The translations under genes were made by a program, and so were the position numbers. Source: a virus. From it: a stretch of DNA of 64,000 nt. Positions 671-56,089 of this stretch are shown in pieces. The notes below the pieces were generated by a model. That model saw only the letters and a list, made by a program, of their open reading frames with translations. It was not told the origin of the DNA and searched no databases. The first letter of the stretch is position 1. Each line of letters opens with the position of its first letter. Location: IMG/VR virus record IMGVR_UViG_3300035698_012408; one strand, 5' to 3'.

Positions 671-684
671 GGTACTTAGAAACC
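671..684. promoter_or_regulatory. copy 1 of the 14-nt motif GGTTTCTAAGTACC (read on the minus strand)
   Basis: Exact 14-mer, 2 nt upstream of the SD of the 93..656 gene and downstream of a sigma70-like candidate promoter. Confidence 0.6.
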
Positions 685-15329: not shown

Positions 15330-16760
15330 TTAAATAATTCGACTTAGTAATTGTGCCACAGGCGATGCCTGCTTTACGAGAAATCCATCCGTGCCAGCCC
15401 CGACACGTGTCCCACCACTCCGCCCATTGTCTCCTGGGACATGAAGCCCATCCTGCCCGGCGGTTCCCGATCTGGAGCTCGCCCCACCACTTGGTCGTGA
15501 TCCTCCCGGAAACTCCGTGGTGCCAGCTCTCTTGGTGGTGGCATTAGGCCCTGCGGCAGGTCCTGCACCTCGTCCATGATCGGCGTGTTCGAGGTCACTC
15601 CGCGAATCCGATCGGCTGCACGTGACAGACCATGTGGCTGTCTTGGTTCGGGCAACGGCTCCAGCATTGCTGGCCGCGTGTGCAACTGCGGCGGTTCGTG
15701 AGACCGTGGCGGCTCCTGCTGGTACAGCGAATGGAACGACTGGAACGCGTGCTCCTGCGGCTCCACCGGCAGATCCCGACTTAGTTGCTCCACCTGCCGC
15801 CCGTCCTCCGTCATTATCCAAGACACTCCGATGAACCTCGGGTCGCTGTACATGTGCTTCCGTTGCGGTCGCGAGACGATCCACAGCGGACCCCCGGGCG
15901 GAGGTGGCGGGGTCCACAGTTGCGGCAGCGACAACACCCGGGACGGCGGCTCCACCAGCTTTGCTAGTGGCGGAGGTAACGGCTTCTCCGGTGGCAGCTT
16001 GATCAGACCCAAATCCCCCGACTTTATAACGCGGATCACGATATGATCGCCAGTCTCGGATCGCATCGAGGACTTGATTTCCTGTCTGAGCCTTCGACGC
16101 ATCCCCCGACTGGCTATCGGCTGCGTAACTGGTTGATTCACTTGCGTTTGTGTCATAGAAACTGCTCCCGCTCTTCCCAAAAACTGGTATGTTTTCGTGA
16201 ATTGGATCGGTACTTAGAAACCGTCCAGGGTTATGAATCAGGCTGCCCTTTTTGACATTGCCAGCCTGAAGGACTCGCTTCTTGCGAATCGCGAAGGTGC
16301 TATGGAACTTGAACTCGCCGTTCTTCGGCAGGCCGCTCAGTCCATAACTTTTACGTAGCTTCTCCAGCTCGGGGCTGTGGATTTCGATCATCCAACACTT
16401 GGAGACGTCATCCCAGCCGTGAGGTGATACTGCCCGCACTGGGCCCAACGTGTAACCGAAGGACTTACCACGTTCTGTTATCTTATCACCTCCACCGATT
16501 TCGTCAATCTCTTCTTTCCGCATTACCGAGACATGAGCCCTATAATTCCCAGAATCTTGCTTGGGTACCTCGGTCCCTGGCTCATTCAACGCTTGGAACG
16601 CACCATGCCCTAAGGCGTTCGGTACGTCCATCAGGAGCCACCCGGAGGCAGATAGGTAGAGTTTGCCCTGGAGCGAGTACGAAAGCTCAGGGGCAGCCGC
16701 AGCCATCTTGCGACCGCCCCGAGCTTCGCAACCTTGGCGGGTTGTATCAGTCATTGACAT
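15330..16760 (-). CDS. 2H phosphoesterase (LigT/cyclic phosphodiesterase/Acb1-like fold) N-terminal domain; 3' extent doubtful
   Basis: Two H-x-[ST]-x motifs (AHVSV and FHSTF) lie about 80 aa apart. The second sits in the LigT-like context ELEKLRKSYGL....FKFHSTFAI. There is no in-frame stop until 15330, but everything after about 16230 overlaps another plausible gene. Confidence 0.5.
   Translation of the reverse strand: MSMTDTTRQGCEARGGRKMAAAAPELSYSLQGKLYLSASGWLLMDVPNALGHGAFQALNEPGTEVPKQDSGNYRAHVSVMRKEEIDEIGGGDKITERGKSFGYTLGPVRAVSPHGWDDVSKCWMIEIHSPELEKLRKSYGLSGLPKNGEFKFHSTFAIRKKRVLQAGNVKKGSLIHNPGRFLSTDPIHENIPVFGKSGSSFYDTNASESTSYAADSQSGDASKAQTGNQVLDAIRDWRSYRDPRYKVGGFGSDQAATGEAVTSATSKAGGAAVPGVVAAATVDPATSARGSAVDRLATATEAHVQRPEVHRSVLDNDGGRAAGGATKSGSAGGAAGARVPVVPFAVPAGAATVSRTAAVAHAASNAGAVARTKTATWSVTCSRSDSRSDLEHADHGRGAGPAAGPNATTKRAGTTEFPGGSRPSGGASSRSGTAGQDGLHVPGDNGRSGGTRVGAGTDGFLVKQASPVAQLLSRII
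15374..16156 (-). CDS. hypothetical Pro-rich protein (alternative frame inside the 15330..16865 ORF)
   Basis: ATG 16156 lies 52 nt downstream of an exact 14-mer copy. Its composition is more protein-like than the Ala/Gly/Ser-rich tail of the overlapping frame. Its stop leaves a normal 54-nt leader before the next gene. Confidence 0.4.
   Translation of the reverse strand: MTQTQVNQPVTQPIASRGMRRRLRQEIKSSMRSETGDHIVIRVIKSGDLGLIKLPPEKPLPPPLAKLVEPPSRVLSLPQLWTPPPPPGGPLWIVSRPQRKHMYSDPRFIGVSWIMTEDGRQVEQLSRDLPVEPQEHAFQSFHSLYQQEPPRSHEPPQLHTRPAMLEPLPEPRQPHGLSRAADRIRGVTSNTPIMDEVQDLPQGLMPPPRELAPRSFREDHDQVVGRAPDREPPGRMGFMSQETMGGVVGHVSGLARMDFS
16209..16222. promoter_or_regulatory. copy 2 of the 14-nt motif
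   Basis: Exact GGTTTCTAAGTACC on the minus strand. Confidence 0.6.
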
Positions 16761-18162: not shown

Positions 18163-21100
18163 TTACGTTGTCGCTGGTGCGACGTTAGCCGGCGTTGCCG
18201 CCGCCTGTGATGTTCGCCATTTGTACCAAAGATCCAAAAACTGATCCTGCTGCTCCGGCGCCACGATGTCCTCCATCATGCCAGATCGCAATCCGGTGAC
18301 GTCGCCCGCGAAGCCAATAACTGAATTACCCCAGCTGCCAAAGCCAGCAGCTCTGTCAAGTTGTTCCTGCTGATCAGGCCCGACCGCATTAAACACGGCC
18401 TCAAGTGCGTGTTCGCCGCCTTGGCCGCCGCGAAGTGCCATCGCCACCATCGGCTTCACTGCCGCCTTCATTGCGTCGGACATCGGCTCCGGTGGAGACA
18501 CCACGTCACTGCCCGCCTCGTACACCTCCTCGGCTCCTGGCTCGAACTGATCTCGCACGAAACCCTGGACGCCTTCTCCGAACATGCCTTGGCGTGCCAG
18601 CGGATAGGCTGCTCCGGCTAACCCTAGCAGGGCCATAAGCCAACTTCCAATACCGCCGCCGTCCTTGCTGGTCATCGCGGACACCAGACCGAGCAGACCA
18701 ACGCCTGCACCGCCATAGAGCAAGACCTGCTCCCAGGTGTCCATGCTTTCGAGCATCCCGCCCACTTCTTCCTCCGGTACGCCTTCAGCCACCAACGCGG
18801 CCGCTGCGTCGTCTGTGACCACCTGCGGTACCGGCTGATCATTTGCAACAGTCTGCACGATCGCCTGCTTATCGGGATCAGCAAATAGGCCAGTTATCGA
18901 CTCGCCAGCTTGATCCAGGTACTCTTGAGCCCTCTCCGGGAACTCGTTTACGAGGCCCGGTATGCCCATACTCTCAAACAGCCCTTCGATCGGGCGTAGC
19001 GGCAGATTCTGCTCTACCCCGGCTTCAGGCTGCTGTGGTCCTTGAACCGGTGCCCCAGGCTGCTGTGGTCCTTGAACCGGTGCCCCAGGCTGCTGTGGTC
19101 CTTGAACCGGCGCTCCGGGCTGCTGTGGTCCTTGCGCCGGCGCTCCGGGCTGTTGCGGACCTTGAACCGGCGCAGGTGGCGGCGTGGGCTGCGCAGGTGG
19201 CTGCGCAGGCTGCTGGGGTCCAGCCACCGGCGTGGCGGGTGTGTTAGGTGGTGTGGGTGTGTTAGGTGGTGTGGGTGTGGTAAGTGGTGCAGTCACCGGA
19301 GGTACCGACGAAACGGGTGGAGCCGCTACCGGCTCCACTGGTGGTGCTGCTGCGGGTGCGGCCGGCCCGGGCACGTTCGGCGTGGCACCAGGGAAGAACG
19401 TCTCCGTACCCTGCGGCAACGTCGTCGCCATCGGTACGTTGCCAAGCATCTCGGCCGGAGGCAGTGTCGCTGGTGGCGTCGGTACGCCTGCTGCCATCTT
19501 CACCCACGACTGTTGCTTCTCCCGCCCGTAGGCCCGGAGCAGGTCCTGCTGTGCTTGTTGCTGGGCTGCCATATCCGCAGCTTGCTCAATCTGAGCTTCG
19601 CTGATTCCCGGTTGGCCGCCGTACTGCTCTGTCAACATCACCTTATATTGCTTAGCGTATTCAGCCACCCGTTGCTCGCCACCCGTCTGCAACGCTTCAC
19701 GCGGTGTCGTGGCAAGTTGCTCTCGATCAAAATCTACAGCAAAGTCAGCGGGATTAGCAGGCTCTACCACTCCGGTGCGTTCCAGCCATCGCTGCGTACC
19801 GCCGCTCTGCTGCTGGTGATTTTCACGCATCCCCTGAACAGCGCCACCTCCGGCCGTCCACTTCAGTGGGATAGTCAGATCTTTAAGACCCTTGGTAACA
19901 GACGGATTCATTCCGGGAATCCTCTGCGACGCGCCAGACATACCACGAAGTGCCGCCCAGGACGGAAGATCTTCTACGACCCCGGCACCTGCCTCAGTAA
20001 GCATTCGCTGAGCTATATTTGCCCCGGGCTGGTTTCCTATCTCGCGAATGCGATCTGCCCCAAGCTGTTGGTAATCACCAAGATTACCGCCGCCGGGCAT
20101 CGGCACGCCATCGATACCGATCTGTATCCCTTCATACGCCGGTGCGAGTGCTTGATACTTAGCGAGCGTATTGAGTGTCGGTTGGAACCCTTTAATACCC
20201 TTCCCCAAACCCCCGAACGCCAGCGACTGAGCAACCTGTGGAGCTGCCTCGACACCGCGGCCAACCATCCGTTTAAGACCACGCCCGACGGGGCCACTCT
20301 CCAATGCCCCTTCCGACAAATCACGACGCGCGCCCGCCCGCCCGGTTCGCGTATCGCGAGCCAGCTGCCCAAGATACTTCATCCGCTGCAACATGTCTTC
20401 CCGAGATGCCTGCGGAAGACTCTGATCTATAGCCCCTTGCATAAGCCGCGGCGCACTGTACTCCGTTAGCTCGCTCATCTGATTCAGTTGTGTCTGGGCG
20501 TCAGCGTCGCCGGCACCAGCGGCTGCGCGTAGTTCATCCAGTCGGTCGCCATTGCTCAACATCTGTCGCGCATTGTGCGAGTTCCCGCGATTCACATCCT
20601 CCATCGCTAGGGTGCGTGCGAACTCTTCTGGATGGCGATTTGCTTCACGCATCTGACCACCGTAGTCGCCCAAGCTCCCCTGCGCGCTGTTCGGATGCAG
20701 CCCCACCCTTGCCGCGTGCGGATTGATACCTTCTCTCAGTGGTGTCAGAATGGGCGAGATAAGGTCATTCAAACCACCTAACGCTCCGGTGTCTGGATTT
20801 TCACCTGTAGCCGCAGCAGACATTCGACCCCCAAGCGGTCCGAGTGTCCTCAACGCGACCAGTGCCTGAGGTATATTTAGAGCGCCACGACCTACATTAG
20901 ATGCTATATCACGAGCCATATCCCCACCGGTACGTCGATCATTCGCCACCGCGTAGGAATTAGCTGCATACTGTGCTGCCTCATCGCCCAACGGCGCGAG
21001 ATTCAATATATGATTACCACGCTCTCCCCCCGGTGCCGTGGTCTTCTGCCCAAAGAAAAACCCGGCGCCTGGAGCTTGCCCGACCGGGATAGGTGCCAAG

Positions 21101-22809
21101 CCTCTGCGAAAAAGATCCTCCATTACCTTGGGATTACCGTGCAAACCAGTGTTACCCAGCCACCACCGCAGCCCGGAATTCACCGACGTATCAATGTTCT
21201 CCCGGAAGACACGAGACTTGTGATCACTGAGCAGCCCACGAACACGCTCATAAGGATCGTCGCCCGCCCCGACGGGTTTGTCATGCTGCGTCCGCAGCCG
21301 TACATTCCAAGCGTTCGGATTGGAGGTGCCAAAAAACGCCTCACCGCGAGGATCATCCTGAGCGTGGGCATAACCTGCCGGAATCTCTCGTATGTCCTGC
21401 CGTGGCTGTGCAGACCGTCCTTCTCCGTATTCTCCGTACATCTTGCTGGCGTGGTCGTACATGCCCACCTTCTGCCCGAAGTAGTTCGTAGAGAATGCGC
21501 GGAGTCGCCGCGTCACTTCCTCCGTGTCACCCCGGACCATCGGATCTGACATGATAGAGTCTGTCCGCTTCCTGAAATACCGATCAGTCTCACGCAGCTT
21601 CGTGAAGGTTGGCGTGAGTACACCGCCATTCTCAGCGTTCACGGTGTCCGCAAAAACGTCTTCAGTAGCCAGCCTTGCCATCTCCTCAGTAAAGTTGCCA
21701 GGGGCAAACGAATCAAAGGTCGGTGTTGGGTTCGAGCGAGGAGCGTTCCTCCGTGCATCCCGAGCTTTCACGCTGCGTTTCAGATAGTCCAAGCTGTTGG
21801 CATAATCATGCTTCTTGTACCCCGACAGCGCCATATTCAGGCTGTGAGGATTGTCACTGTCATCACGGGACTGATGCTCGACCATAGTCCGCCAAGCCTC
21901 TTGCGCCCCGTCGTTCCCTCTCGCTCGATAGTCGTCATCCCACAGCTTCCGGTTGTTCTGCCAATCCTTCCAAGGGCCTTCACGGTATGCGTCGAGTGCC
22001 GTGTGCTGCTCTGGGGTCATCCGCCCCTCAGGCTCTCTGAAACGTCCCGAGAAGGCCACCGAGGAGTGGTCGAACTCCGGCTTGGCTTGCCGGTTGCTGT
22101 TGTAGCCCAATAGTTGCTGGAGCTGCTCCGGCGGGGCCGGCGGCGTGTAGTAGCCCATCTCGCGGTTCAGCTGCGGCGGTGGCTGGAGCTGGTCAAGCGT
22201 CGCCGGGGAGAACTGCATAGACTCGTCCACATGAGACTGATCACGTAGATTACCCAGTTGCGCGCCTTGTGGCATGCTGCCTGTCTGGTCCAGGTAGGAC
22301 GACTGCTCTGGGGCCTGTGTTGGATTAGGGGCCCGCGGGATGGGTTGGTTCGGCTGCCCGGCCCAATTGGTCGCCGGAGGCTGCGGACCCTGCACCGGGG
22401 GCTGGGCCGGTAGGGAATCAGGGAGATTTGGCTTGTAATCAGGGGTTTGAGCGTCCGAAATAAGCCGATTCGCCGGTCTCACGCCGTCCAGATTGGGATT
22501 ACGCCACGGATGCGTGTCCGGGGTGTACGGCGACTTCCCCGCAGCGATATTGTCCTGCATGTAGGGCGGCGGACCGATCGCACACTTCTCGAACTCTGCC
22601 GCTACTGCGGGATGGAAGTCGATAGCGTGCTGAATGGCAGAAAAGACCTCCCGATCGCTGTTAAGCCCAGCTTCCTTGCAGCGCAGCAGAAAACCGGCTA
22701 CAAATGCGGACTTTTCAGGCGTTACAGCCCGTAAATTGATAGCCGCAGCTGCGGATTGCAGCTCAGCAGTGGTTTGGGTCGGACCAATCAATGAGAAAGC
22801 GCCAGCCAT
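18163..22809 (-). CDS. giant (about 1548 aa) protein with a Pro/Gln-rich tandem-repeat region and C-terminal TM helices; possible internal virion, ejection or tape-measure-like protein
   Basis: ATG 22809 after AAGGAGGG. N-terminal motif GFLLRCKEAGL, repeats (V)QGPQQPGAP x5, TM-like VLLYGGAGVGLLGLV and WLMALLGLAGAAYPLA. The function is inferred only from size and architecture. Confidence 0.5.
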   Translation of the reverse strand: MAGAFSLIGPTQTTAELQSAAAAINLRAVTPEKSAFVAGFLLRCKEAGLNSDREVFSAIQHAIDFHPAVAAEFEKCAIGPPPYMQDNIAAGKSPYTPDTHPWRNPNLDGVRPANRLISDAQTPDYKPNLPDSLPAQPPVQGPQPPATNWAGQPNQPIPRAPNPTQAPEQSSYLDQTGSMPQGAQLGNLRDQSHVDESMQFSPATLDQLQPPPQLNREMGYYTPPAPPEQLQQLLGYNSNRQAKPEFDHSSVAFSGRFREPEGRMTPEQHTALDAYREGPWKDWQNNRKLWDDDYRARGNDGAQEAWRTMVEHQSRDDSDNPHSLNMALSGYKKHDYANSLDYLKRSVKARDARRNAPRSNPTPTFDSFAPGNFTEEMARLATEDVFADTVNAENGGVLTPTFTKLRETDRYFRKRTDSIMSDPMVRGDTEEVTRRLRAFSTNYFGQKVGMYDHASKMYGEYGEGRSAQPRQDIREIPAGYAHAQDDPRGEAFFGTSNPNAWNVRLRTQHDKPVGAGDDPYERVRGLLSDHKSRVFRENIDTSVNSGLRWWLGNTGLHGNPKVMEDLFRRGLAPIPVGQAPGAGFFFGQKTTAPGGERGNHILNLAPLGDEAAQYAANSYAVANDRRTGGDMARDIASNVGRGALNIPQALVALRTLGPLGGRMSAAATGENPDTGALGGLNDLISPILTPLREGINPHAARVGLHPNSAQGSLGDYGGQMREANRHPEEFARTLAMEDVNRGNSHNARQMLSNGDRLDELRAAAGAGDADAQTQLNQMSELTEYSAPRLMQGAIDQSLPQASREDMLQRMKYLGQLARDTRTGRAGARRDLSEGALESGPVGRGLKRMVGRGVEAAPQVAQSLAFGGLGKGIKGFQPTLNTLAKYQALAPAYEGIQIGIDGVPMPGGGNLGDYQQLGADRIREIGNQPGANIAQRMLTEAGAGVVEDLPSWAALRGMSGASQRIPGMNPSVTKGLKDLTIPLKWTAGGGAVQGMRENHQQQSGGTQRWLERTGVVEPANPADFAVDFDREQLATTPREALQTGGEQRVAEYAKQYKVMLTEQYGGQPGISEAQIEQAADMAAQQQAQQDLLRAYGREKQQSWVKMAAGVPTPPATLPPAEMLGNVPMATTLPQGTETFFPGATPNVPGPAAPAAAPPVEPVAAPPVSSVPPVTAPLTTPTPPNTPTPPNTPATPVAGPQQPAQPPAQPTPPPAPVQGPQQPGAPAQGPQQPGAPVQGPQQPGAPVQGPQQPGAPVQGPQQPEAGVEQNLPLRPIEGLFESMGIPGLVNEFPERAQEYLDQAGESITGLFADPDKQAIVQTVANDQPVPQVVTDDAAAALVAEGVPEEEVGGMLESMDTWEQVLLYGGAGVGLLGLVSAMTSKDGGGIGSWLMALLGLAGAAYPLARQGMFGEGVQGFVRDQFEPGAEEVYEAGSDVVSPPEPMSDAMKAAVKPMVAMALRGGQGGEHALEAVFNAVGPDQQEQLDRAAGFGSWGNSVIGFAGDVTGLRSGMMEDIVAPEQQDQFLDLWYKWRTSQAAATPANVAPATT
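19026..19175 (-). repeat. five tandem 30-bp in-frame repeats (caggctgctgtggtccttgaaccggtgccc)
   Basis: Copies 1 and 2 are identical and copies 3 to 5 degenerate progressively. They encode GPQQPGAPVQ units. Confidence 0.9.
19237..19272 (-). repeat. 2 x 18-bp tandem repeat (gggtgtgttaggtggtgt) encoding TPTPPN
   Basis: Exact duplication seen directly. Confidence 0.85.
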
Positions 22810-22925
22810 CGCACACGCCCTCCTTGGGTGCAAAAGAGGTTGCTGCTGGGAACCAGCTTGGTCCCACGGTGTTAATCATACCCCAACTCTCACCGCAATG
22901 CGAGAGGAGTCAAGAATATCGCCCA

Positions 22926-32250: not shown

Positions 32251-32264
32251 GGTTTCTAAGTACC
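32251..32264. promoter_or_regulatory. copy 3 of the 14-nt motif (opposite orientation)
   Basis: Exact GGTTTCTAAGTACC on the plus strand, 4 nt downstream of the -10 of a candidate minus-strand promoter. Confidence 0.6.
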
Positions 32265-39237: not shown

Positions 39238-39251
39238 GGTTTCTAAGTACC
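39238..39251. promoter_or_regulatory. copy 4 of the 14-nt motif
   Basis: Exact GGTTTCTAAGTACC on the plus strand, between a structured terminator-like element and the SD of 38929..39225. Confidence 0.6.
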
Positions 39252-39347: not shown

Positions 39348-42008
39348 CTACGCTCCGCCGGGCTTGCCGATCAGTTTCTCAAGACCCTGATCAGGCTGAG
39401 CCGCACTGAAGCCAGTGAGCGGCGGCTTGTTGGGAGTAGGCGGTGGTGTGGTCATCCCCGGAGGCTTGGGTGTCAGGGCCGCAGCGCTGGCTCCCAGGCC
39501 GCCCGGCTTCGCAGTCGGGGGCATCGGAGGTGTTGCGGTCGAAGGGCCGCCAGGAGGCGGTACGGGCGCCCCTACGGTTGGCTTCGGTGGCGTACCTGTT
39601 GGTGCCGCCCCGGATAACAGATCCATCGCACCACCGAGTGCCGGAGGCTTACCACCGCCGAACATCGGTTGCGGTGTCGCACCACCTTGATAGTGCTGGG
39701 CCATCTGCGACCCGAACGACGGAGATGCCGGAGGAGCTGCTGGACCGGCGGGTGCTCGCGACATGCCCGGAGTCGGGGCGGCTCCAACCGCACCTGCTCC
39801 TGGAGTCGGAGCTCCACGCCTTGCCGCGGCACCGGGTGCCGTTGGCGTGGGTGGTCGATTCGCCTGGAAGGTCGGGGAGACCGGCTCACGCCCTGGGGCC
39901 TGGATCGGTTGAACTTCGTCCGGCAGCCCGGCGATCGGCGACGATTGTCGCACAGGTCCGGCAGGTGCTGGCTTCACTTCATCAGGCAGCGAGGCTATCT
40001 GGGGAGCTGGCTGGCGTTGCGGGCCGACCGGTGCCGGCCTCACTTCGCCGGGCAGCGATGCCATCGGAGCCGCAGGCTTCCGCTGCGGGGCTCCACCCGT
40101 CGTGGAGGGCTGCGTCATGGAAGCTGCCCCGGCCATGCCTGCTGGTGACGGCAGCGGCGTGGCTGAGTTCACCATGCTCCCTGCCTGCCCCAGTGGGCTT
40201 GGCGCCGATGCTGCGTTCGCAATGTTACCTGCCTGCCCCAGCGTGCCAGGGGCCTTCGCCGACGACACGATGTTACCAGCCTGCCCCATCTGACTCGGAG
40301 CCTTCGCAGCGTTCACGATGTTACCAGCCTGCCCCAGCGTGTTAGGAGCCGCCCCACCCAGCAATGCTGCCAGCGGCGGAGCCGGCTGTTGTGCCGCGGG
40401 TGGCTTGACTGGCGCCGGTCCGCCGCTCGACGCGATCGTTGGAGTCGGCCCTGTGATATTCGACGGCTTGGAAGCAGCCCCGGACCCTGGGCTCGTGGTC
40501 CCAGAGCCCGAGCCTGCAACCTGGGAGGGACGCGACCGGCCTCGGCCACCACGGCCTCCGCCTTTCCCTCGTCCCTTACCTCGTCGGGTAGACTTGGCTG
40601 TGGCGGTCGGCGACGGAGCAGCTGGTGATCCGATGCCAGCCGCTGCTGCTCTCGCAGCCGCTGCTGACTGATATGCTCCACCCATCTGATCCGGGGACGG
40701 CTTGTTCCCCACTGTCCACGGTGGTGTGGCGCCATCGTCGTTCAAGATGTCTCGATCGCGTGTGGCTTGATTGCGGGCGTCATGTGCCCTGACCAACGCT
40801 TCGTACTGCGGCGTGCCCGGTTTGGGAGCCGCCAGCTTCTCAAAGAGCTGTGAGGAGCCACACAGCGACTTAGCTGGTGCTTGCGAGCTGTGAGACGTTT
40901 CACAGCCGCTTATCTTCTCACGGAGCTGTGAGGCGTTTAACAGCGTCGAAGCAACGAACACGGTGCTGTCAGAGCTCTCACAGCTTCCTTGGCTCGCTTG
41001 CTTGTCTCGCATCGTGCTCAGGAGCCTCTCGCCGTCTCGGCCAGTGGTCATGCCCAACGATGTCAGCAGACCCATCACGCCCTCGGTCGGCAGAGTTGGG
41101 TGCTGCGAGGCTACGACTTCACGCAGTTCGCTCTCCACAGTCTTGTCCTGTGACCACGAAGCCACCTTGAAACCCTTGGCCACGCCCGTAGCGTGGTTGC
41201 CGTCGATTGTATTATTCACGGGATCGAGCCCTCCGTTAGAGTCAATGGGGTTAGCCGCGATGGCACTGCCAGCACCAGGAAACGACGGAGCTTTCTGGCC
41301 ACCTGCCGGTAGTCCTATCTGCATCGGGCCGAAGCCCGCCATCTGGGGCTTACCACTCGGTGGTTGCAGGAACTGTTGCATTCCTGCCATCGCCTGTGGC
41401 ATAGCAAATGACGACGATTGTGGCGACTGCATATTTGGCGACATTGGAGGCTGCATACCAGGAACTGCCGCTGTCTTGTCGCGGCCCTCCAACTTGGAGC
41501 CGTCGGGGAGCAGGAATGGGAAAAAGTCACGGATGACCCCTGCTGCTTTAAGTCGTGTGCTATCAAGGATTTGCCGCTTATTGGGGCTCGCAGGCACGCT
41601 GGCTAAGTTGCTGTCAGAGCTCTCACAGCCCGTCACAGCAGATAAACCAGGACGTCCCAAGGCACCCAAATCAATAAAACCTGCCTGTTTTGGCACCCTA
41701 TTGGGGTAAACCGTGCCCAAAACACCCCCTGAATCCACTTTACCCCGCGCCGCGTATAACGTACTTAGGTGTCGTGTTTTGGCAAGTTCGCTGTGAGCTT
41801 TCTTCTCTTTCCGCTCCCTGTCGTCCTTTTTATTTGGCAATTTGTCGTGTTTCGTTCTCGCGAAATTGCTCGCGAGATTGCTGGCGCCAGGTGGCTTGAT
41901 TGACGACGCAACAGACTTTACAATGGCTGGCGGGTGGGATGGCTCTGCCTTCTGGTGAGCTCGCACCATGCCAAACAACCGCTGCTGTGGTTTAGACTTT
42001 GCTGGCAT
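39348..42008 (-). CDS. 886-aa low-complexity Pro/Ala/Gly-rich protein with a DUF3008-like N-terminus
   Basis: The N-terminus MPAKSKPQQRLFGMV...FARTKHDKLPNKK resembles DUF3008 (recalled from memory). It contains several in-frame tandem repeats and the embedded inverted-repeat array. Confidence 0.5.
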   Translation of the reverse strand: MPAKSKPQQRLFGMVRAHQKAEPSHPPAIVKSVASSIKPPGASNLASNFARTKHDKLPNKKDDRERKEKKAHSELAKTRHLSTLYAARGKVDSGGVLGTVYPNRVPKQAGFIDLGALGRPGLSAVTGCESSDSNLASVPASPNKRQILDSTRLKAAGVIRDFFPFLLPDGSKLEGRDKTAAVPGMQPPMSPNMQSPQSSSFAMPQAMAGMQQFLQPPSGKPQMAGFGPMQIGLPAGGQKAPSFPGAGSAIAANPIDSNGGLDPVNNTIDGNHATGVAKGFKVASWSQDKTVESELREVVASQHPTLPTEGVMGLLTSLGMTTGRDGERLLSTMRDKQASQGSCESSDSTVFVASTLLNASQLREKISGCETSHSSQAPAKSLCGSSQLFEKLAAPKPGTPQYEALVRAHDARNQATRDRDILNDDGATPPWTVGNKPSPDQMGGAYQSAAAARAAAAGIGSPAAPSPTATAKSTRRGKGRGKGGGRGGRGRSRPSQVAGSGSGTTSPGSGAASKPSNITGPTPTIASSGGPAPVKPPAAQQPAPPLAALLGGAAPNTLGQAGNIVNAAKAPSQMGQAGNIVSSAKAPGTLGQAGNIANAASAPSPLGQAGSMVNSATPLPSPAGMAGAASMTQPSTTGGAPQRKPAAPMASLPGEVRPAPVGPQRQPAPQIASLPDEVKPAPAGPVRQSSPIAGLPDEVQPIQAPGREPVSPTFQANRPPTPTAPGAAARRGAPTPGAGAVGAAPTPGMSRAPAGPAAPPASPSFGSQMAQHYQGGATPQPMFGGGKPPALGGAMDLLSGAAPTGTPPKPTVGAPVPPPGGPSTATPPMPPTAKPGGLGASAAALTPKPPGMTTPPPTPNKPPLTGFSAAQPDQGLEKLIGKPGGA
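40174..40365 (-). repeat. 4 x 48-bp in-frame tandem repeat
   Basis: Anchors atgttacc at 40222, 40270 and 40318, and atgctccc at 40174. It encodes GQAGNIV..AKAP... x4. Confidence 0.85.
40847..40984. repeat. phased array of four 20-bp inverted repeats GCTGT-N10-ACAGC
   Basis: Elements at 40847-40866, 40887-40906, 40925-40944 and 40965-40984, with spacing 40/38/40 bp. Arms are 6-7 of 8 complementary. Confidence 0.85.
41610..41629. repeat. fifth copy of the 20-bp inverted repeat (identical to 40965-40984)
   Basis: gctgtcagagctctcacagc is repeated exactly. Confidence 0.85.
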
Positions 42009-42109
42009 CCTAGTACCTTTCATCGTGAACTGGTATGATCGCTGCCTGCTTGTTATCATTAGTGTAGCCTGATGACCGTCACTATTGCAACCCCGTAAGG
42101 AAGAGATTC

Positions 42110-43153
42110 ATGTCAACACACGCAGATCAGCCATTCGCTGATGCTCCCAGTCCCGAAGCGTACGCTATCGCCCCGCCAGAGCCTTTCGCTCAACTCATGC
42201 CAGGACTGATAGTCATGGAGGGGGACATCCGCCTCGGGCTCGACCACCTGGGTGATGGTTGGAATGAAGTCACCCAAGGGTACGTCGGTATCACCGTGCC
42301 TGATGCTCAGGTGGCTTATGCTCGCTTGATCATGCCCGAGAACTTCTCTCGACTCGTCAATGGGACCTTCGTTCATCCCCGTGATCAGCTCTGGCGGAGT
42401 GGTGAGCCTCGCTGGGTGCCGGTACCGGCTGAGTGGATCGCTCGTGGCATGACCGTTGATGGTATCCGGGAGGAACTCGCGGAAGAAGCCCAGCTCTACA
42501 TCTGCCGTCCTGACTTCGATGCTCCTGATCACCGAGTGTTGCCCATTCCGCCCCATCACCGAGCCCTTGCAGCTGCCGAACCGATCCGATATGGCGATAA
42601 AGCCATCCACGCAGGGCTCGATGACTGGCAAACTGTCGCTGTTGGGCTCCGTGGGCAGGAATGTGGTGAACCGTGCGAACCGAACAAGTTCGTCCGCTAC
42701 TGCCGGCCTATCCACCCCCAAGCCCAGAACTGGTATGTTGACCTTCGACCCGATCGAGGTGACGATACCGGCCCCGGATCAGCCGTCACACCCTTCGCAA
42801 CGCTCGAAGGTGGCCAAAATGCGATCGAAAAGGCCTCCCAAGACGCCAATATCACCGTCTATGGCGTGATTTGGGAGGTTCGAGGCACCCCGCTGGTCGC
42901 TTATGACCTCCCTGAGCCTCAAAAACAGGGTTATCAGGCCCCAATACTCGAATGTGACCCTGCTGAAGAGGCCGATCGAGCTCGGCTGAGCGCCCTGGCA
43001 CCCAAAATACCGATCGAACCGACCGGTGCGGCCGAAAAGACCGCTGCTACCCCTAAATTGCAAAAAGAACACATCAAGGCGATGATCCAGAGCCTCGAAC
43101 AAGCACTTCTGGTAGCTCATACCATGCTAGCGGAGATTGAGAGCGGAGAATGA
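42110..43153 (+). CDS. hypothetical protein (first of the only two plus-strand genes)
   Basis: ATG after AAGGAAGAG. 347 aa, no family recognised. Confidence 0.5.
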   Translation: MSTHADQPFADAPSPEAYAIAPPEPFAQLMPGLIVMEGDIRLGLDHLGDGWNEVTQGYVGITVPDAQVAYARLIMPENFSRLVNGTFVHPRDQLWRSGEPRWVPVPAEWIARGMTVDGIREELAEEAQLYICRPDFDAPDHRVLPIPPHHRALAAAEPIRYGDKAIHAGLDDWQTVAVGLRGQECGEPCEPNKFVRYCRPIHPQAQNWYVDLRPDRGDDTGPGSAVTPFATLEGGQNAIEKASQDANITVYGVIWEVRGTPLVAYDLPEPQKQGYQAPILECDPAEEADRARLSALAPKIPIEPTGAAEKTAATPKLQKEHIKAMIQSLEQALLVAHTMLAEIESGE

Positions 43154-43563
43154 CCATGCGTGACCGAATTATCGACCTAGATGGTGCCGATGACAAGCCT
43201 ACGCGGGCTGAGCGGAGCTACACCGTCTATTGCGAGTGCGAAAACTGCGGAGAGCTCGAATATATCGAGATCGAACGCGGTATTCTCATCACCAACGCCG
43301 TCTGCCCCTTCTGTGACTGCATGTCGCTCATCCGAGCGGCTGAACCGGGCAGTCTCGAAGAGTTCGAGGACCTCGAAGACGACCCATTGGACACCGGGGT
43401 GGACTTTCAGACGATTGTGGACTCCCTGGAGCTCCAAAAAGCGAGGGAATCACAAGAAGGCATGCCTCACATGCCGATCAGCCCGTTCGATCGCTCGGTA
43501 GCTGAGTTGGCACGGCAGGTACGTGAGGAACAACGACACGGGAGCAGGCAAGACGCTGGCTGA
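43150..43563 (+). CDS. zinc-ribbon protein with an acidic C-terminal half
   Basis: ATGA coupling to the upstream gene. CECENCG...CPFCDC. Confidence 0.5.
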   Translation: MTMRDRIIDLDGADDKPTRAERSYTVYCECENCGELEYIEIERGILITNAVCPFCDCMSLIRAAEPGSLEEFEDLEDDPLDTGVDFQTIVDSLELQKARESQEGMPHMPISPFDRSVAELARQVREEQRHGSRQDAG

Positions 43564-43573
43564 GACGCCAAGC

Positions 43574-43587
43574 GGTACTTAGAAACC
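43574..43587. promoter_or_regulatory. copy 5 of the 14-nt motif
   Basis: Exact copy, 10 nt after the plus-strand stop, overlapping the 5' arm of the terminator hairpin by 4 nt. Confidence 0.6.
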
Positions 43588-50291: not shown

Positions 50292-51455
50292 TTATACACC
50301 AAGGAAGTCTGCGACGCTATCCCGGGTCTCCCCGGCTTTCACCGCAAGCTCCTGAAGACGTTCCAACGGCATCGGCAAGTTCCCCACCATTGCGAGAATC
50401 TTGATGCCGTCGCCCCCGCTGGCCGGGTAGACGCCTGGGAACACTGCGGAATCGGCCGGAGTAAGGATACGATTCATCATCTCGGTGCCGTGGTCCAGCA
50501 CGCCAACCGTGATAGGCTCCGGCCCGGACCAAGCTGCGCCACTCACGACGTAGATGAGCCCGGCGACGTTGCCCTGGGTGAGATCGATCGTAGCCAACAC
50601 ATTCCGGCGAAGCTGATCACGGATGGGCGTACTGACGTCGCTCGGCTCCGCCCACTTCGTGATATTGCAAGCTGCAAAGGCCACAATTCCACTGTCCATG
50701 ATCTTGCTGAAATCGGCCGGATCGAATGTCGTACCACCCACATCCTCGCTCTCCGTGCCGGCGAGCCGGTTGAAGGTATGGAGGATCTGAGCCGTACTCT
50801 GGTTAGATGCCGGTTTCTCTTGTGGTACTGGCACCTTGGCACCATAGAGCGTTTTGAACTTCTCGTTGTCGATGAAGATCACAGGGCTCACCTTGAGCTT
50901 GTTCAGCACCTTCGCCGAGTGGAGAATGTTCTTTGCGCTACGCTGGCCTTCGGAGTCCTTTGGCATGGCCATGATGACACCAACACGCGGAGGTCGCTTC
51001 TTCTCCTGCATGTAGCGCTTGGCTACCTGGACCACCTTAGCGAACGCCCCGGCACCCGTACCGCCCGCCCCAGAGAGGCAGACAAACACGTAATCCGGGT
51101 CCTCGCCCCAGCAGCGCTGGAAGAGATCATAGAGATCCTCGTCCTTATCCGCTACCAGTCGAGCCGCCGTGTGCGGATCTTTACCTGCACCCCGCGCCTG
51201 CCCCACATCGAGCTTGGCGGTGTCCGGGAACGTCTTCAGCTCGGCCAAGTCGGCAATCGCCGTGTTGACCGCACAGACTCGGGTGTACCCGATTTCCTGA
51301 AACGTCTTGGCTATCCGCCCGCCAGCTTGTCCGACACCCACAAACGCGAATTTGTAAGCTACCGGATGATCAAACTTGTCGGCGATAGTCATCCCCGTAG
51401 GGCTCTCAGGAACCTCTGGTAGGTCCCCAATGTTGAGATGGATGTCATCACTCAT
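50292..51455 (-). CDS. tubulin/FtsZ-superfamily GTPase, TubZ/PhuZ-like
   Basis: T1 loop FVGVGQAGGRIA. T4 loop SGAGGTGAG matches the tubulin signature [SAG]GGTG[SA]G. AVNTA, GAGKDP and VIFIDNE are collinear with the TubZ segments AVNFA, GAARTP and VIVNDN. Confidence 0.75.
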   Translation of the reverse strand: MSDDIHLNIGDLPEVPESPTGMTIADKFDHPVAYKFAFVGVGQAGGRIAKTFQEIGYTRVCAVNTAIADLAELKTFPDTAKLDVGQARGAGKDPHTAARLVADKDEDLYDLFQRCWGEDPDYVFVCLSGAGGTGAGAFAKVVQVAKRYMQEKKRPPRVGVIMAMPKDSEGQRSAKNILHSAKVLNKLKVSPVIFIDNEKFKTLYGAKVPVPQEKPASNQSTAQILHTFNRLAGTESEDVGGTTFDPADFSKIMDSGIVAFAACNITKWAEPSDVSTPIRDQLRRNVLATIDLTQGNVAGLIYVVSGAAWSGPEPITVGVLDHGTEMMNRILTPADSAVFPGVYPASGGDGIKILAMVGNLPMPLERLQELAVKAGETRDSVADFLGV

Positions 51456-56075: not shown

Positions 56076-56089
56076 GGTACTTAGGAACC
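56076..56089. promoter_or_regulatory. copy 6 of the 14-nt motif (one mismatch: GGTTCCTAAGTACC on the minus strand)
   Basis: 22 nt upstream of the portal ATG. Its internal TAA is the stop codon of the upstream gene. Confidence 0.55.

What the first reader, a model, noticed from the sequence alone, without database searches (positions are those of the whole stretch)
40847..41629. Phased array of GCTGT-N10-ACAGC inverted repeats inside a coding gene, conserved as DNA rather than as peptide
There are five 20-bp elements, at 40847, 40887, 40925, 40965 and 41610. The last two are identical (gctgtcagagctctcacagc). All share perfect outer arms GCTGT/ACAGC and 6-7 of 8 arm complementarity.

Four of them are spaced 40/38/40 bp, roughly four helical turns, so they lie on one face of the helix.

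Relative to the 39348..42008 reading frame, the elements start at codon position 2 (40906, 40984, 41629) or codon position 3 (40866, 40944). They therefore encode unrelated peptides: CESSDS and CETSHS versus LLNASQL and LCGSSQL. Selection is thus acting on the nucleotide sequence.

A pattern with 10 fixed bases is expected well under once in 64 kb.

Arrays of phased dyad sites are typical of several elements:
- partition centromeres (parS, parC, tubC);
- replication-origin iterons;
- pac sites;
- multi-operator regulatory regions.

A TubZ-like partition or positioning GTPase is encoded 9 kb away, with no recognisable TubR or tubC next to it.
Basis: partly seen in the sequence, partly recalled or inferred. 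Interest (0 to 1): 0.8.

Follow-up and report, generated by a model that had tools for sequence, protein, structure and literature searches.

The report
Conserved palindromic binding sites inside phage gene
Five copies of a 20-base palindrome sit inside one gene of a large phage and are kept letter-for-letter in distant relatives whatever the reading frame, so they are almost certainly docking sites for an unidentified nucleic-acid-binding protein rather than protein-coding repeats.

Summary
Exactly five GCTGT-N10-ACAGC elements occur in the 64 kb (0.13 expected by chance). All lie in one minus-strand gene (39348..42008) and are read in two frames.

They are copies of a 20-bp palindrome whose family consensus is GCTGTGAGAGCTCTCACAGC. 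Phage homologues with only 30-59% protein identity carry the same element in the same gene, in all three reading frames. It also occurs just outside the called ORFs. In ten genomes I counted 21 copies in 11 kb of gene against 3 in 95 kb of flank.

Codon choice is forced by the element: Cys is always TGT, the last Ser always AGC, and the Ser of 'SQL' is TCA in 12 of 14 cases.

There is no base-pair covariation and changes are uncompensated, so the constraint is on sequence rather than on RNA structure.

The identical 20-mer is the only invariant block in a non-coding stretch of a Planctomycetaceae genomic-island family. That family carries ParB-like and MerR-like genes and defence genes.

Best reading: an array of operator-type sites for an unidentified, probably dimeric, DNA-binding protein. 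The role (transcription control, centromere or origin) is unresolved. The link to the tubulin gene 8.7 kb away has no support.

The parts
41610..41629 (.). Solitary upstream copy of the palindrome (GCTGTCAGAGCTCTCACAGC on the + strand). It encodes CESSDS and lies between the N-terminal basic motif and the conserved central domain of the gene.
   Evidence: An equivalent upstream copy occurs in relatives: L010 312, L024 669, L025 332, and a degenerate one at L007 5348.
40965..40984 (.). First copy of the four-site array, identical to the copy at 41610. It encodes CESSDS.
   Evidence: It is orthologous to dyad A in alignment A2.
40925..40944 (.). Second copy of the array, read in the other frame (LLNASQL). 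The left half is weakened (GTTAA), which avoids the in-frame TGA that the perfect palindrome would create.
40887..40906 (.). Third copy of the array (CETSHS). It contains an exact TGTGA-N6-TCACA core.
   Evidence: The same 20-mer occurs at L006 561.
40847..40866 (.). Fourth copy of the array, read in the other frame (LCGSSQL).
41790..41797 (+). Isolated half-site GCTGTGAG in the same gene.
   Evidence: (I10)
39348..42008 (-). Host gene, 886 aa from the MPAKSKP start (the ORF runs up to 42059). It has three parts:
- an N-terminal basic motif that matches PHROG families of unknown function;
- a conserved Gly/Pro-rich central domain;
- a long P/A/G-rich low-complexity tail.
The product is largely predicted to be disordered.
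42110..43153 (+). Divergently transcribed neighbour of unknown function (347 aa). It is syntenic with the dyad-bearing gene in all relatives, and its promoter region is shared with that gene.
   Evidence: homologues in L007, L008, L012, L016, L021, L024; no family match

Best explanation
The five elements are copies of one 20-bp palindromic recognition site. The family consensus is GCTGTGAGAGCTCTCACAGC, and the best-conserved half is CTCACAGC. The site is recognised by a sequence-specific nucleic-acid-binding protein, most likely a dimer that binds double-stranded DNA.

One site lies upstream of the segment that encodes the gene's conserved central domain. A four-site array with about 40-bp spacing lies 645 bp downstream of that site. 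The coding sequence has adapted around the sites: it uses whichever frame is available and bends the palindrome only where it would create a stop codon.

Inferred mechanism: cooperative binding to the array, possibly with looping to the upstream site, builds a nucleoprotein complex on phage DNA at the end of the conserved part of this gene. In most relatives that position is the 3' end of the gene, 30-100 nt before the next gene. The most likely job is therefore control of transcription through this point, as an operator or roadblock array. Seeding of a segregation or replication complex is a less likely alternative.

The binding protein is not identified. No HTH or ParB domain was recognised among the window ORFs scanned. 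The identical 20-mer is an invariant non-coding block in a Planctomycetaceae island family. The binding factor is therefore probably host-encoded, island-encoded, or a phage protein that the island also responds to.

Shown here: the sites exist, they are constrained as nucleotide sequence, and they are shared with the bacterial island. Inferred: binding as double-stranded DNA, a dimeric binder, and a regulatory role.
For: (1) Five matches against 0.13 expected, all in one gene.

(2) Homologues found by an exhaustive profile-free search carry the same element in their DNA. Six of them (L006, L007, L008, L010, L011, L019) carry 15 exact GCTGT-N10-ACAGC copies. These include perfect 20-nt palindromes, in three reading phases: CE..[DH]S, L[WLC]..SQL and AV.ALTA. 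One copy lies 8 nt after a stop codon.

(3) Over ten genomes there are 21 exact copies in 11.2 kb of this gene against 3 in 95.5 kb of flanks. Two of those three lie within 100 nt of the ORF.

(4) Codon choice is forced by the element:
- Cys is TGT in 12 of 12 cases (background 0.34-0.44).
- The terminal Ser is AGC in 12 of 12 (background 0.20-0.29).
- The Ser of 'SQL' is TCA in 12 of 14 (background 0.07-0.13; P about 2e-9).

(5) In the alignment of the array region, the dyads are conserved blocks and the spacers diverge.

(6) Over 23 distinct copies, 86% of cells pair, but covariation does not exceed shuffles (235-251 of 500 shuffles reach the observed values). Departures are unpaired, not compensated. 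RNA hairpin energies of the five window copies range from -5.2 to -14.9 kcal/mol. The central 4-mer, which could not pair in a hairpin, is itself palindromic in 12 of 25 distinct copies.

(7) The perfect 20-mer occurs 9 times in 596 Gb of prokaryotic genomes (my estimate of the chance expectation is about 0.5). Six of those hits are in Planctomycetaceae MAGs. These six are homologous non-coding loci in which the 20-mer is the only invariant block. One locus has four copies within 200 nt, beside ParB_N and MerR-like genes.

(8) More distant relatives (L012, L013) carry 9-11 direct repeats of the half-site CTCACA immediately after the homologous gene. An array of this motif at the gene's 3' end is therefore an old feature, and the half-site is the unit of recognition.
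Against: - No binding protein is identified. Pfam finds no HTH or ParB among the 73 window ORFs scanned.
- A palindrome cannot tell DNA recognition from RNA recognition by itself.
- The sense-strand 3' half is better conserved than the 5' half, and the direct repeats in L012 are all on the sense strand. This would also fit a strand-specific reader of RNA or single-stranded DNA.
- In frame b the stop-avoiding change is most often A to G, which keeps a G-U pair in the mRNA.
- In this window the array is 1.5 kb from the next gene, which is awkward for a simple operator role.
- The Planctomycetaceae link rests on one island family, that is, one evolutionary origin.
Confidence: 0.5

Rival explanations
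1. The elements act as RNA. Each forms a hairpin of 8 bp with a tetraloop in the gene's mRNA, and a protein or nuclease recognises it. The hairpins would stabilise, process or pause the transcript or its translation at the end of the conserved part of the gene.
For: - The consensus folds at -16.8 kcal/mol, and the 190-nt array region has a z-score of -3.1.
- The array sits at the 3' end of the gene in most relatives.
- Six A-to-G changes keep G-U pairs on the sense strand.
- The sense-strand half CTCACAGC is the better conserved one, and the repeats in L012 are all on the sense strand.
- The window encodes a cold-shock-domain protein.
Against: - There is no covariation beyond shuffles, and departures are uncompensated.
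- One window copy folds no better than shuffles (-5.2 kcal/mol, 5-bp stem), yet it keeps the conserved sequence.
- The central 4-mer is often palindromic, although it would be the loop.
- There is no Rfam match.
- The same 20-mer in the bacterial island shows uncompensated one-sided variants.
Confidence: 0.25
2. One reading: the array is a partition centromere (of tubC or parS type) used by the tubulin-like GTPase 8.7 kb away or by another segregation system.
For: - A tubulin-family gene is present.
- Arrays of short repeats are typical of centromeres (established knowledge of parC, tubC and the omega-protein heptad arrays of inc18 plasmids).
- In the bacterial island, four copies lie next to a ParB_N gene.
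- In L012 the half-sites form direct-repeat arrays.
Against: - No adaptor gene (TubR, ParB or ParR type) is recognised in the window.
- The array is not adjacent to the tubulin gene.
- In relatives the array is linked to this gene and its divergent neighbour, not to a tubulin.
- Tubulins of large phages (PhuZ) are known to work without a centromere (established knowledge).
Confidence: 0.08
3. The array is a replication origin of the lambda-ori type: iterons that lie inside the gene of the protein that binds them.
For: - There are four dyad-symmetric repeats inside a linker-coding part of a gene, and they always travel with that gene. This is the arrangement of lambda ori within gene O (established knowledge).
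Against: - There is no AT-rich region near the array; GC is 55-64%.
- There is no GC-skew inflection.
- The gene product has no recognisable DNA-binding or initiator domain and is predicted to be mostly disordered.
- The same site is conserved in an island that lacks this gene.
Confidence: 0.08
4. The elements are a short mobile or recombination-prone palindromic repeat (REP or MITE type, or a tandem-duplication relic) with no function of their own, tolerated in a disordered protein region.
For: - TRF detects a 38-nt period.
- Copy number and position vary among relatives.
- Other hairpin repeats have colonised the same gene in L018.
- The protein region is disordered.
Against: - The copies occupy orthologous positions in lineages whose synonymous sites are saturated, and they are kept exact while the spacers diverge.
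- None is found elsewhere in 95 kb of phage flanks.
- Codon choice is forced.
- In the island the element is a single invariant block, not a dispersed family.
Confidence: 0.05
5. The array is a packaging (pac) recognition site.
For: Known pac sites lie inside coding genes and consist of repeated short motifs (P1 pacA and P22 gene 3; established knowledge).
Against: The gene and its neighbours show no terminase similarity. Read termini cannot be examined here.
Confidence: 0.03

Closest known systems
Lambda ori iterons inside gene O (lambdoid phages)
   Same: Several dyad-symmetric protein-binding repeats are embedded in the linker-coding part of a gene. They are read as an unremarkable flexible peptide and are inherited together with that gene.
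   Different: There is no AT-rich unwinding element and no skew signal. The gene product has no recognisable DNA-binding domain. Spacing is about 40 bp rather than about two turns. The same site also occurs in a bacterial island without the gene.
Dispersed or intragenic operators of global plasmid and phage repressors (KorB operators of RK2; 'stoperators' of cluster A mycobacteriophages)
   Same: These are short conserved sites for one DNA-binding protein that are tolerated inside coding sequence, and they act on transcription passing through them.
   Different: Those sites are spread over the whole replicon and their binder is encoded on it. Here all copies are in one gene and no binder is recognised in 64 kb.
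CRP/FNR-type operator (TGTGA-N6-TCACA)
   Same: The consensus palindrome contains an exact TGTGA-N6-TCACA core, and so does the window copy at 40887.
   Different: The flanks are an invariant GC instead of A/T-rich. The conserved positions extend to GCTGTGAG. The sites are intragenic and clustered rather than promoter-proximal. The resemblance is recalled from established knowledge and was not tested by binding.
Centromeres made of short repeat arrays (tubC/TubR, parC/ParR, omega-protein heptads)
   Same: The half-site unit is used in inverted or direct orientation in arrays (this window compared with L012). A tubulin gene is present in the genome.
   Different: No adaptor gene is present. The array is not adjacent to the tubulin gene, and there is no synteny with it in relatives.
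Helper-phage cis elements copied by satellites or islands (P2/P4 late-promoter dyads, shared cos or pac sites)
   Same: An identical cis element is shared between a phage family and a chromosomal island that have no homologous proteins in the stretches held here (one weak 30% match aside).
   Different: No evidence was seen that the island is a satellite: no capsid or packaging genes were recognised. It carries defence-type genes instead.

Membership tests
tubC/TubR/TubZ type III partition system | Repeat array immediately upstream of a tubR-tubZ operon | tested here: not met
   The array lies 8.7 kb from the tubulin gene, inside an unrelated gene. In relatives it is syntenic with that gene, not with a tubulin.
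tubC/TubR/TubZ type III partition system | Small winged-helix TubR gene next to tubZ | tested here: not met
   The ORFs flanking 50292..51455 have no Pfam or PHROG DNA-binding match. Distant homologues could be missed.
ParB/parS centromere | ParB-family protein encoded on the same replicon near its palindromic sites | tested here: inconclusive
   No ParB_N is found in the 64-kb window, but the genome is incomplete. In the bacterial island, a ParB_N gene lies 0.8-1 kb from four copies.
Iteron origin of lambda-ori type | Four or more repeated binding sites inside the initiator gene | tested here: inconclusive
   The sites are inside a gene and always travel with it. The product has no initiator or DNA-binding signature.
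Iteron origin of lambda-ori type | Adjacent AT-rich unwinding region and strand-skew inflection | tested here: not met
   GC is 55-64% around the array. Cumulative GC skew is monotonic across the window.
pac site | Located in or next to the small-terminase gene; packaging-derived read termini | tested here: not met
   No terminase similarity is found in the gene or its neighbours. Read termini are not testable with these tools.
CRP/FNR-type operator | TGTGA-N6-TCACA core | tested here: met
   The core is exact in the family consensus and in the copy at 40887. The other four window copies have one mismatch.
CRP/FNR-type operator | A/T-rich flanks and promoter-proximal position; binding by a CRP-family protein | tested here: not met
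   The flanks are an invariant GC and the sites are intragenic. Binding is not testable here.
LexA SOS box of gamma- and beta-proteobacteria (CTGT-N8-ACAG) | 8-nt spacer between CTGT and ACAG | tested here: not met
   The spacer is 10 nt in all copies. No N8 matches occur in the window.
Structured RNA element | Base pairs maintained by compensatory change | tested here: not met
   86% of cells pair, but covariation equals shuffles and departures are unpaired. There is no Rfam hit.
Intrinsic terminator | GC-rich hairpin followed by a U run on the transcribed strand | tested here: not met
   Only the copy at 40887 scores, weakly and on the antisense (+) strand. The count does not exceed shuffles.
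REP/MITE-type dispersed palindromic repeats | Many copies dispersed through the genome, mostly intergenic | tested here: not met
   There are 0 copies outside the gene in 61 kb of the window, and 3 in 95 kb of flanks over ten genomes.

The most novel reading that the evidence does not exclude
The palindrome is a shared signal between a family of large phages, probably of Planctomycetaceae, and a chromosomal island of the host that carries defence genes. Two versions are possible. In the first, the island carries the phage's own operator, so that a phage DNA-binding protein switches the island on at infection. In the second, the replicating phage uses its five-site intragenic array as a decoy that titrates the island's MerR-like or ParB-like regulator. 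Either would be a cis-element-level arms race written into a coding sequence in three reading frames.
Probability: 0.12. Interest if true: 0.85.

Novelty: new variant of a known kind. Interest (0 to 1): 0.66.

Why it matters
The finding is a clean natural example of dual coding. A 20-bp recognition site is held exact inside a protein-coding gene across phages whose proteins have drifted to 30% identity, and the protein sequence yields to the DNA.

It gives a precise, synthesisable bait (GCTGTGAGAGCTCTCACAGC) for pulling down an unknown regulator.

It gives a first host clue (Planctomycetaceae) for an uncultured lineage of large phages.

It also gives a testable link between a phage cis element and a host defence island.

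Tried and rejected
- **Peptide repeat.** Rejected: three frames are used, codon choice is forced, and copies occur outside ORFs.
- **Chance.** Rejected.
- **Evolutionary comparison with the close relative.** The JGI contig L001 and the ENA contig L002 are essentially the same phage and gave no information.
- **Phage and viral collections.** INPHARED phages and IMG/VR gave no close relative. A two-dyad pattern scan of IMG/VR gave only unrelated low-GC hits. A GCTGTGAG-N4-CTCACAGC scan of IMG/VR gave 7 loci, which I estimate to be near chance level. One phage (L038) has several AAWT-centred sites and no identifiable regulator.
- **Genome-collection scan for relatives of the protein.** It found none.
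- **Known RNA families, tRNAs and terminators.** None found.
- **Structure prediction.** The model of the protein's first 453 residues was of low confidence (pLDDT 57), so no fold search was run.
- **Island proteins.** The 533-aa and MerR-like proteins gave no informative PDB matches.
- **Alternative palindromes in distant relatives.** None found.
- **Literature.** The motif gave no hit in the literature search. SDBU01 turned out to be a whole sediment metagenome assembly and carries no taxonomic information.
- **DGR, CRISPR-like, protelomerase, Xer and invertase sites.** Considered and dropped on anatomy. There is no RT and no template/variable repeat pair in the window, and the repeat and spacer sizes and the core spacing do not fit.
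Full report
**1. The observation**

The window contains exactly five matches to GCTGT-N10-ACAGC, at 40847, 40887, 40925, 40965 and 41610. Dinucleotide-preserving shuffles expect 0.13, and none of 100 shuffles reaches five. No other spacer length between 0 and 30 is enriched. Allowing one mismatch adds only two unrelated hits, which is near expectation.

The last two copies are identical over 21 nt. Tandem Repeats Finder reports a 38-nt period across the cluster.

All five lie in the minus-strand ORF 39348..42059. The likely start is the MPAKSKP methionine at 42008, which is the start called on a near-identical JGI contig.

The tubulin-family gene at 50292..51455 is real.

The 'one face of the helix' argument is weak. 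At 10.5 bp per turn, 40 and 38 bp correspond to 3.8 and 3.6 turns.

**2. The genomic setting**

The window looks like part of a large phage. Genes are densely packed and nearly all on the minus strand. Recognisable content includes a tubulin, a thymidylate kinase, a cold-shock-domain protein, a papain-like protease, thioredoxin, several sulfotransferases and glycosyltransferases, and a Methyltransf_24 protein.

It has no close relative in INPHARED or IMG/VR.

The dyad-bearing gene has three parts:
- an N-terminal basic motif shared with PHROG families of unknown function;
- a strongly conserved Gly/Pro-rich central segment (PGxxGxAAxNxIDxxGGLDPxGxTxDGNxAxGVxKGFK);
- a 500-residue P/A/G-rich tail.

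AlphaFold gives a low-confidence, largely disordered model (pLDDT 57). The dyads fall in low-confidence linker segments.

A divergently transcribed gene of unknown function (42110..43153) is syntenic with it in every relative examined.

**3. Relatives decide the DNA-versus-peptide question**

The word-indexed protein search found only the same phage again (98% identity; identical DNA in the dyad region). An exhaustive phmmer search with residues 18-470 found homologues down to 30% identity.

Their proteins contain both peptide types:
- CE[ST]x[DH]S;
- L[WF]xxSQL.

Their DNA, fetched from the encoding contigs, shows why. The same palindrome GCTGTGAG-N4-CTCACAGC is present in every one:
- L006 has three copies with the same 40/38 spacing as the window.
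- L007 has two copies.
- L008 has two, one a perfect palindrome with a CCGG centre.
- L010 has four. Three are the perfect palindrome GCTGTGAGAGCTCTCACAGC, one is read in the third frame as AVAALTA, and one lies 8 nt after the called stop.
- L011, L019 and L024 each carry exact copies. L023 and L025 carry only near copies with 1-4 mismatches to the 16-base consensus.

The perfect palindrome would give an in-frame TGA in frame b. That is exactly where frame-b copies deviate (GTGAG becomes GTGG, GTTA, GTGT or GTCA). The weakened left halves in the window are thereby explained.

Over ten genomes there are 21 exact copies in 11.2 kb of this gene and 3 in 95.5 kb of flanks. Two of those three lie within 100 nt of the ORF.

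Codon choice is dictated by the element:
- Cys is TGT in 12 of 12 cases (background 0.34-0.44).
- The terminal Ser is AGC in 12 of 12 (background 0.20-0.29).
- The Ser of SQL is TCA in 12 of 14 (background 0.07-0.13; binomial P about 2e-9).

Even counting one event per lineage, the TCA result alone gives about 5e-6. In the multiple alignment of the array region, the dyads are conserved blocks and the roughly 20-nt spacers diverge.

The conclusion that selection acts on the nucleotide sequence is therefore solid. The peptides are conserved only as its shadow.

**4. Anatomy conserved across the family**

One or a few copies lie upstream of the central-domain coding segment and an array lies downstream. 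The two are 450-700 nt apart: 645 in the window, 693 in L010, 571 in L024, 457 in L025 and 614 in L007.

In most relatives the ORF stops within 30-100 nt after the array, or within it. The array is thus basically a 3'-end or intergenic feature. In this window and in L008 it has been swallowed by a low-complexity C-terminal extension.

A more distant clade (L012/L022 and L013/L017) lacks the palindromes. It has, starting on the stop codon of the homologue with a truncated palindrome GCTGTGAGCTCTCACA, a 410-560-nt non-coding array. That array holds 9-11 direct repeats of the half-site CTCTCACA at a 14-nt period.

The unit of recognition is therefore the half-site CTCACA(GC). An array of it at this position is older than the palindromic arrangement. 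Still more distant homologues have neither.

**5. DNA site or RNA hairpin?**

The consensus would make a good RNA hairpin (-16.8 kcal/mol), and the array region folds better than shuffles (z = -3.1). Several results argue against a structural constraint:
- On 23 distinct copies, 86% of cells pair, yet every covariation measure equals its shuffle control (235-251 of 500). Departures are overwhelmingly unpaired rather than compensated.
- The window's own copies range from -14.9 down to -5.2 kcal/mol. The weakest is no better than shuffles but still keeps the conserved letters.
- The central tetranucleotide would be the loop, yet it is palindromic in 12 of 25 distinct copies: AGCT, ACGT, CCGG and GCGC.
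- No Rfam family matches.

These points favour sequence-specific recognition of a symmetric duplex.

Some evidence points the other way:
- The sense-strand 3' half is more conserved than the 5' half.
- The commonest stop-avoiding change keeps a G-U pair.
- The direct repeats in L012 are all on the sense strand.

I therefore keep the RNA reading as a serious rival, at about 0.25.

**6. The same 20-mer in bacteria**

The perfect palindrome occurs nine times in the GTDB species-representative genomes; my estimate of the chance expectation is about 0.5. Six of the nine are in Planctomycetaceae MAGs, including contigs of 225 kb and 313 kb.

These six are homologous loci of one island family and not relatives of the phage. 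In their alignment the 20-mer is the only invariant block, 20 of 20 columns, within non-coding flanks of about 52% identity. One locus (L030) has four copies within 200 nt, whose variants are one-sided and uncompensated.

The islands encode:
- a MerR/excisionase-like HTH protein;
- a ParB_N protein;
- an unknown protein of about 530 aa;
- variably, a reverse transcriptase of defence type, an E1-E2/JAB pair and an rve transposase.

The element is thus a conserved cis site in non-coding bacterial DNA. This supports a protein-binding DNA site, suggests Planctomycetaceae as the host lineage, and raises the possibility of cross-talk between phage and island. It is one evolutionary origin, so the host inference is a lead and not a proof.

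**7. What it most likely does**

No HTH or ParB domain is recognisable among the 73 window ORFs scanned. The binder is therefore encoded elsewhere in the phage, in the host or in the island.

The specific roles compare as follows:
- **Origin.** Disfavoured: there is no AT-rich region, no skew inflection and no initiator-like product.
- **Pac site.** Disfavoured: there is no terminase context.
- **Tubulin centromere.** Nothing speaks for it beyond the presence of a tubulin gene 8.7 kb away. The array is linked to this gene, not to the tubulin, in relatives.
- **Operator or roadblock array.** The position fits this best: at the end of the conserved gene, just before the next genes in relatives, with a second site about 600 bp upstream. 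Such an array would control transcription through this point, possibly by looping.

I commit to the operator or roadblock reading at moderate confidence (0.5 for 'protein-bound DNA site array', with the regulatory role as the favoured sub-reading).

The consensus contains an exact TGTGA-N6-TCACA core, the CRP-type half-site arrangement. However, it has invariant GC flanks and an intragenic location, so membership of that operator class is not established.

**8. Novelty**

Protein-binding repeats inside coding sequence are known: lambda ori in gene O, P1 pac in pacA, KorB operators and mycobacteriophage stoperators.

Three things are unusual here:
- the degree of dual-coding constraint, a 20-bp palindrome kept exact in three frames across proteins of 30-59% identity;
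- its strict confinement to one gene;
- its identity with an invariant non-coding block in a host island family.

I rate it a new variant of a known kind, of good but not exceptional interest. It has a low-probability, high-interest reading as a shared signal or decoy between phage and island.

Noticed in passing
window 671-683, 16209-16221, 43574-43586 (+); 32252-32264, 39239-39251 (-); near copies at 56076 and 10905: The 13-mer GGTACTTAGAAAC occurs five times exactly and twice nearly, against 0.6 expected. The copies sit at gene boundaries. One lies about 100 nt after the stop of the dyad-bearing gene, and one lies between convergent genes. It may be a phage promoter or terminator motif.
   Followed up: partly
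window 40167-40350: A 48-nt tandem repeat (3.8 copies) lies in the low-complexity tail of the same gene. The near-identical JGI contig (L001) carries one more unit, so copy number is polymorphic.
   Followed up: partly
window about 19026-19150: A 30-nt tandem repeat (4-5 copies, CTGCTGTGGTCCTTGAACCGG...) lies inside the 1556-aa ORF 18163..22833.
   Followed up: no
L012 5304-5700 (also L022, L013, L017): A non-coding array lies directly after the homologous gene. It has direct repeats CTCTCACA(TATAC) at a 14-nt period. These alternate with a stem-loop that carries a T-loop-like GGGTTCGAA loop, and the unit recurs about five times.
   Followed up: partly
L018 450-2930: More than 20 copies of another hairpin repeat occur every 56-71 nt. 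The repeat is (A)AGCCACTCCCRGG-CTTYGTA-YGGGAGG, with compensatory stem variants such as CTCTCG/CGAGAG. The copies lie inside the homologue's ORF (peptide PGxxTGG) and continue 1.4 kb into non-coding DNA.
   Followed up: partly
L031 2730-2965, L034 2155-2390, L032 1351-1604: A block of about 240 nt is 88-90% identical between Planctomycetaceae MAGs and lies about 0.6 kb from the palindrome. It has no Rfam or tRNA match. It overlaps a conserved ORF of about 220 aa.
   Followed up: partly
L030 639-1016, L030 1073-4309, L032 2724-7323, L034 3160-5592: The island family that carries the palindrome encodes a MerR-like HTH protein, a ParB_N protein, an unknown protein of about 530 aa and a defence-type reverse transcriptase. 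One member also has an E1-E2/JAB pair. L030 has four palindromes interleaved with a second repeat (GGAACACATCCCC).
   Followed up: partly
window 40963-41709 (+): An antisense ORF of 248 codons opposite the conserved central domain stays open and 'conserved' in relatives by tblastn. This is most likely a by-product of the sense-strand constraint.
   Followed up: no
window 42110-43563 (+): In this stretch of the window, the only two convincing plus-strand genes form a divergent pair with the dyad-bearing gene. The 347-aa one is syntenic in all relatives and has no family match.
   Followed up: partly
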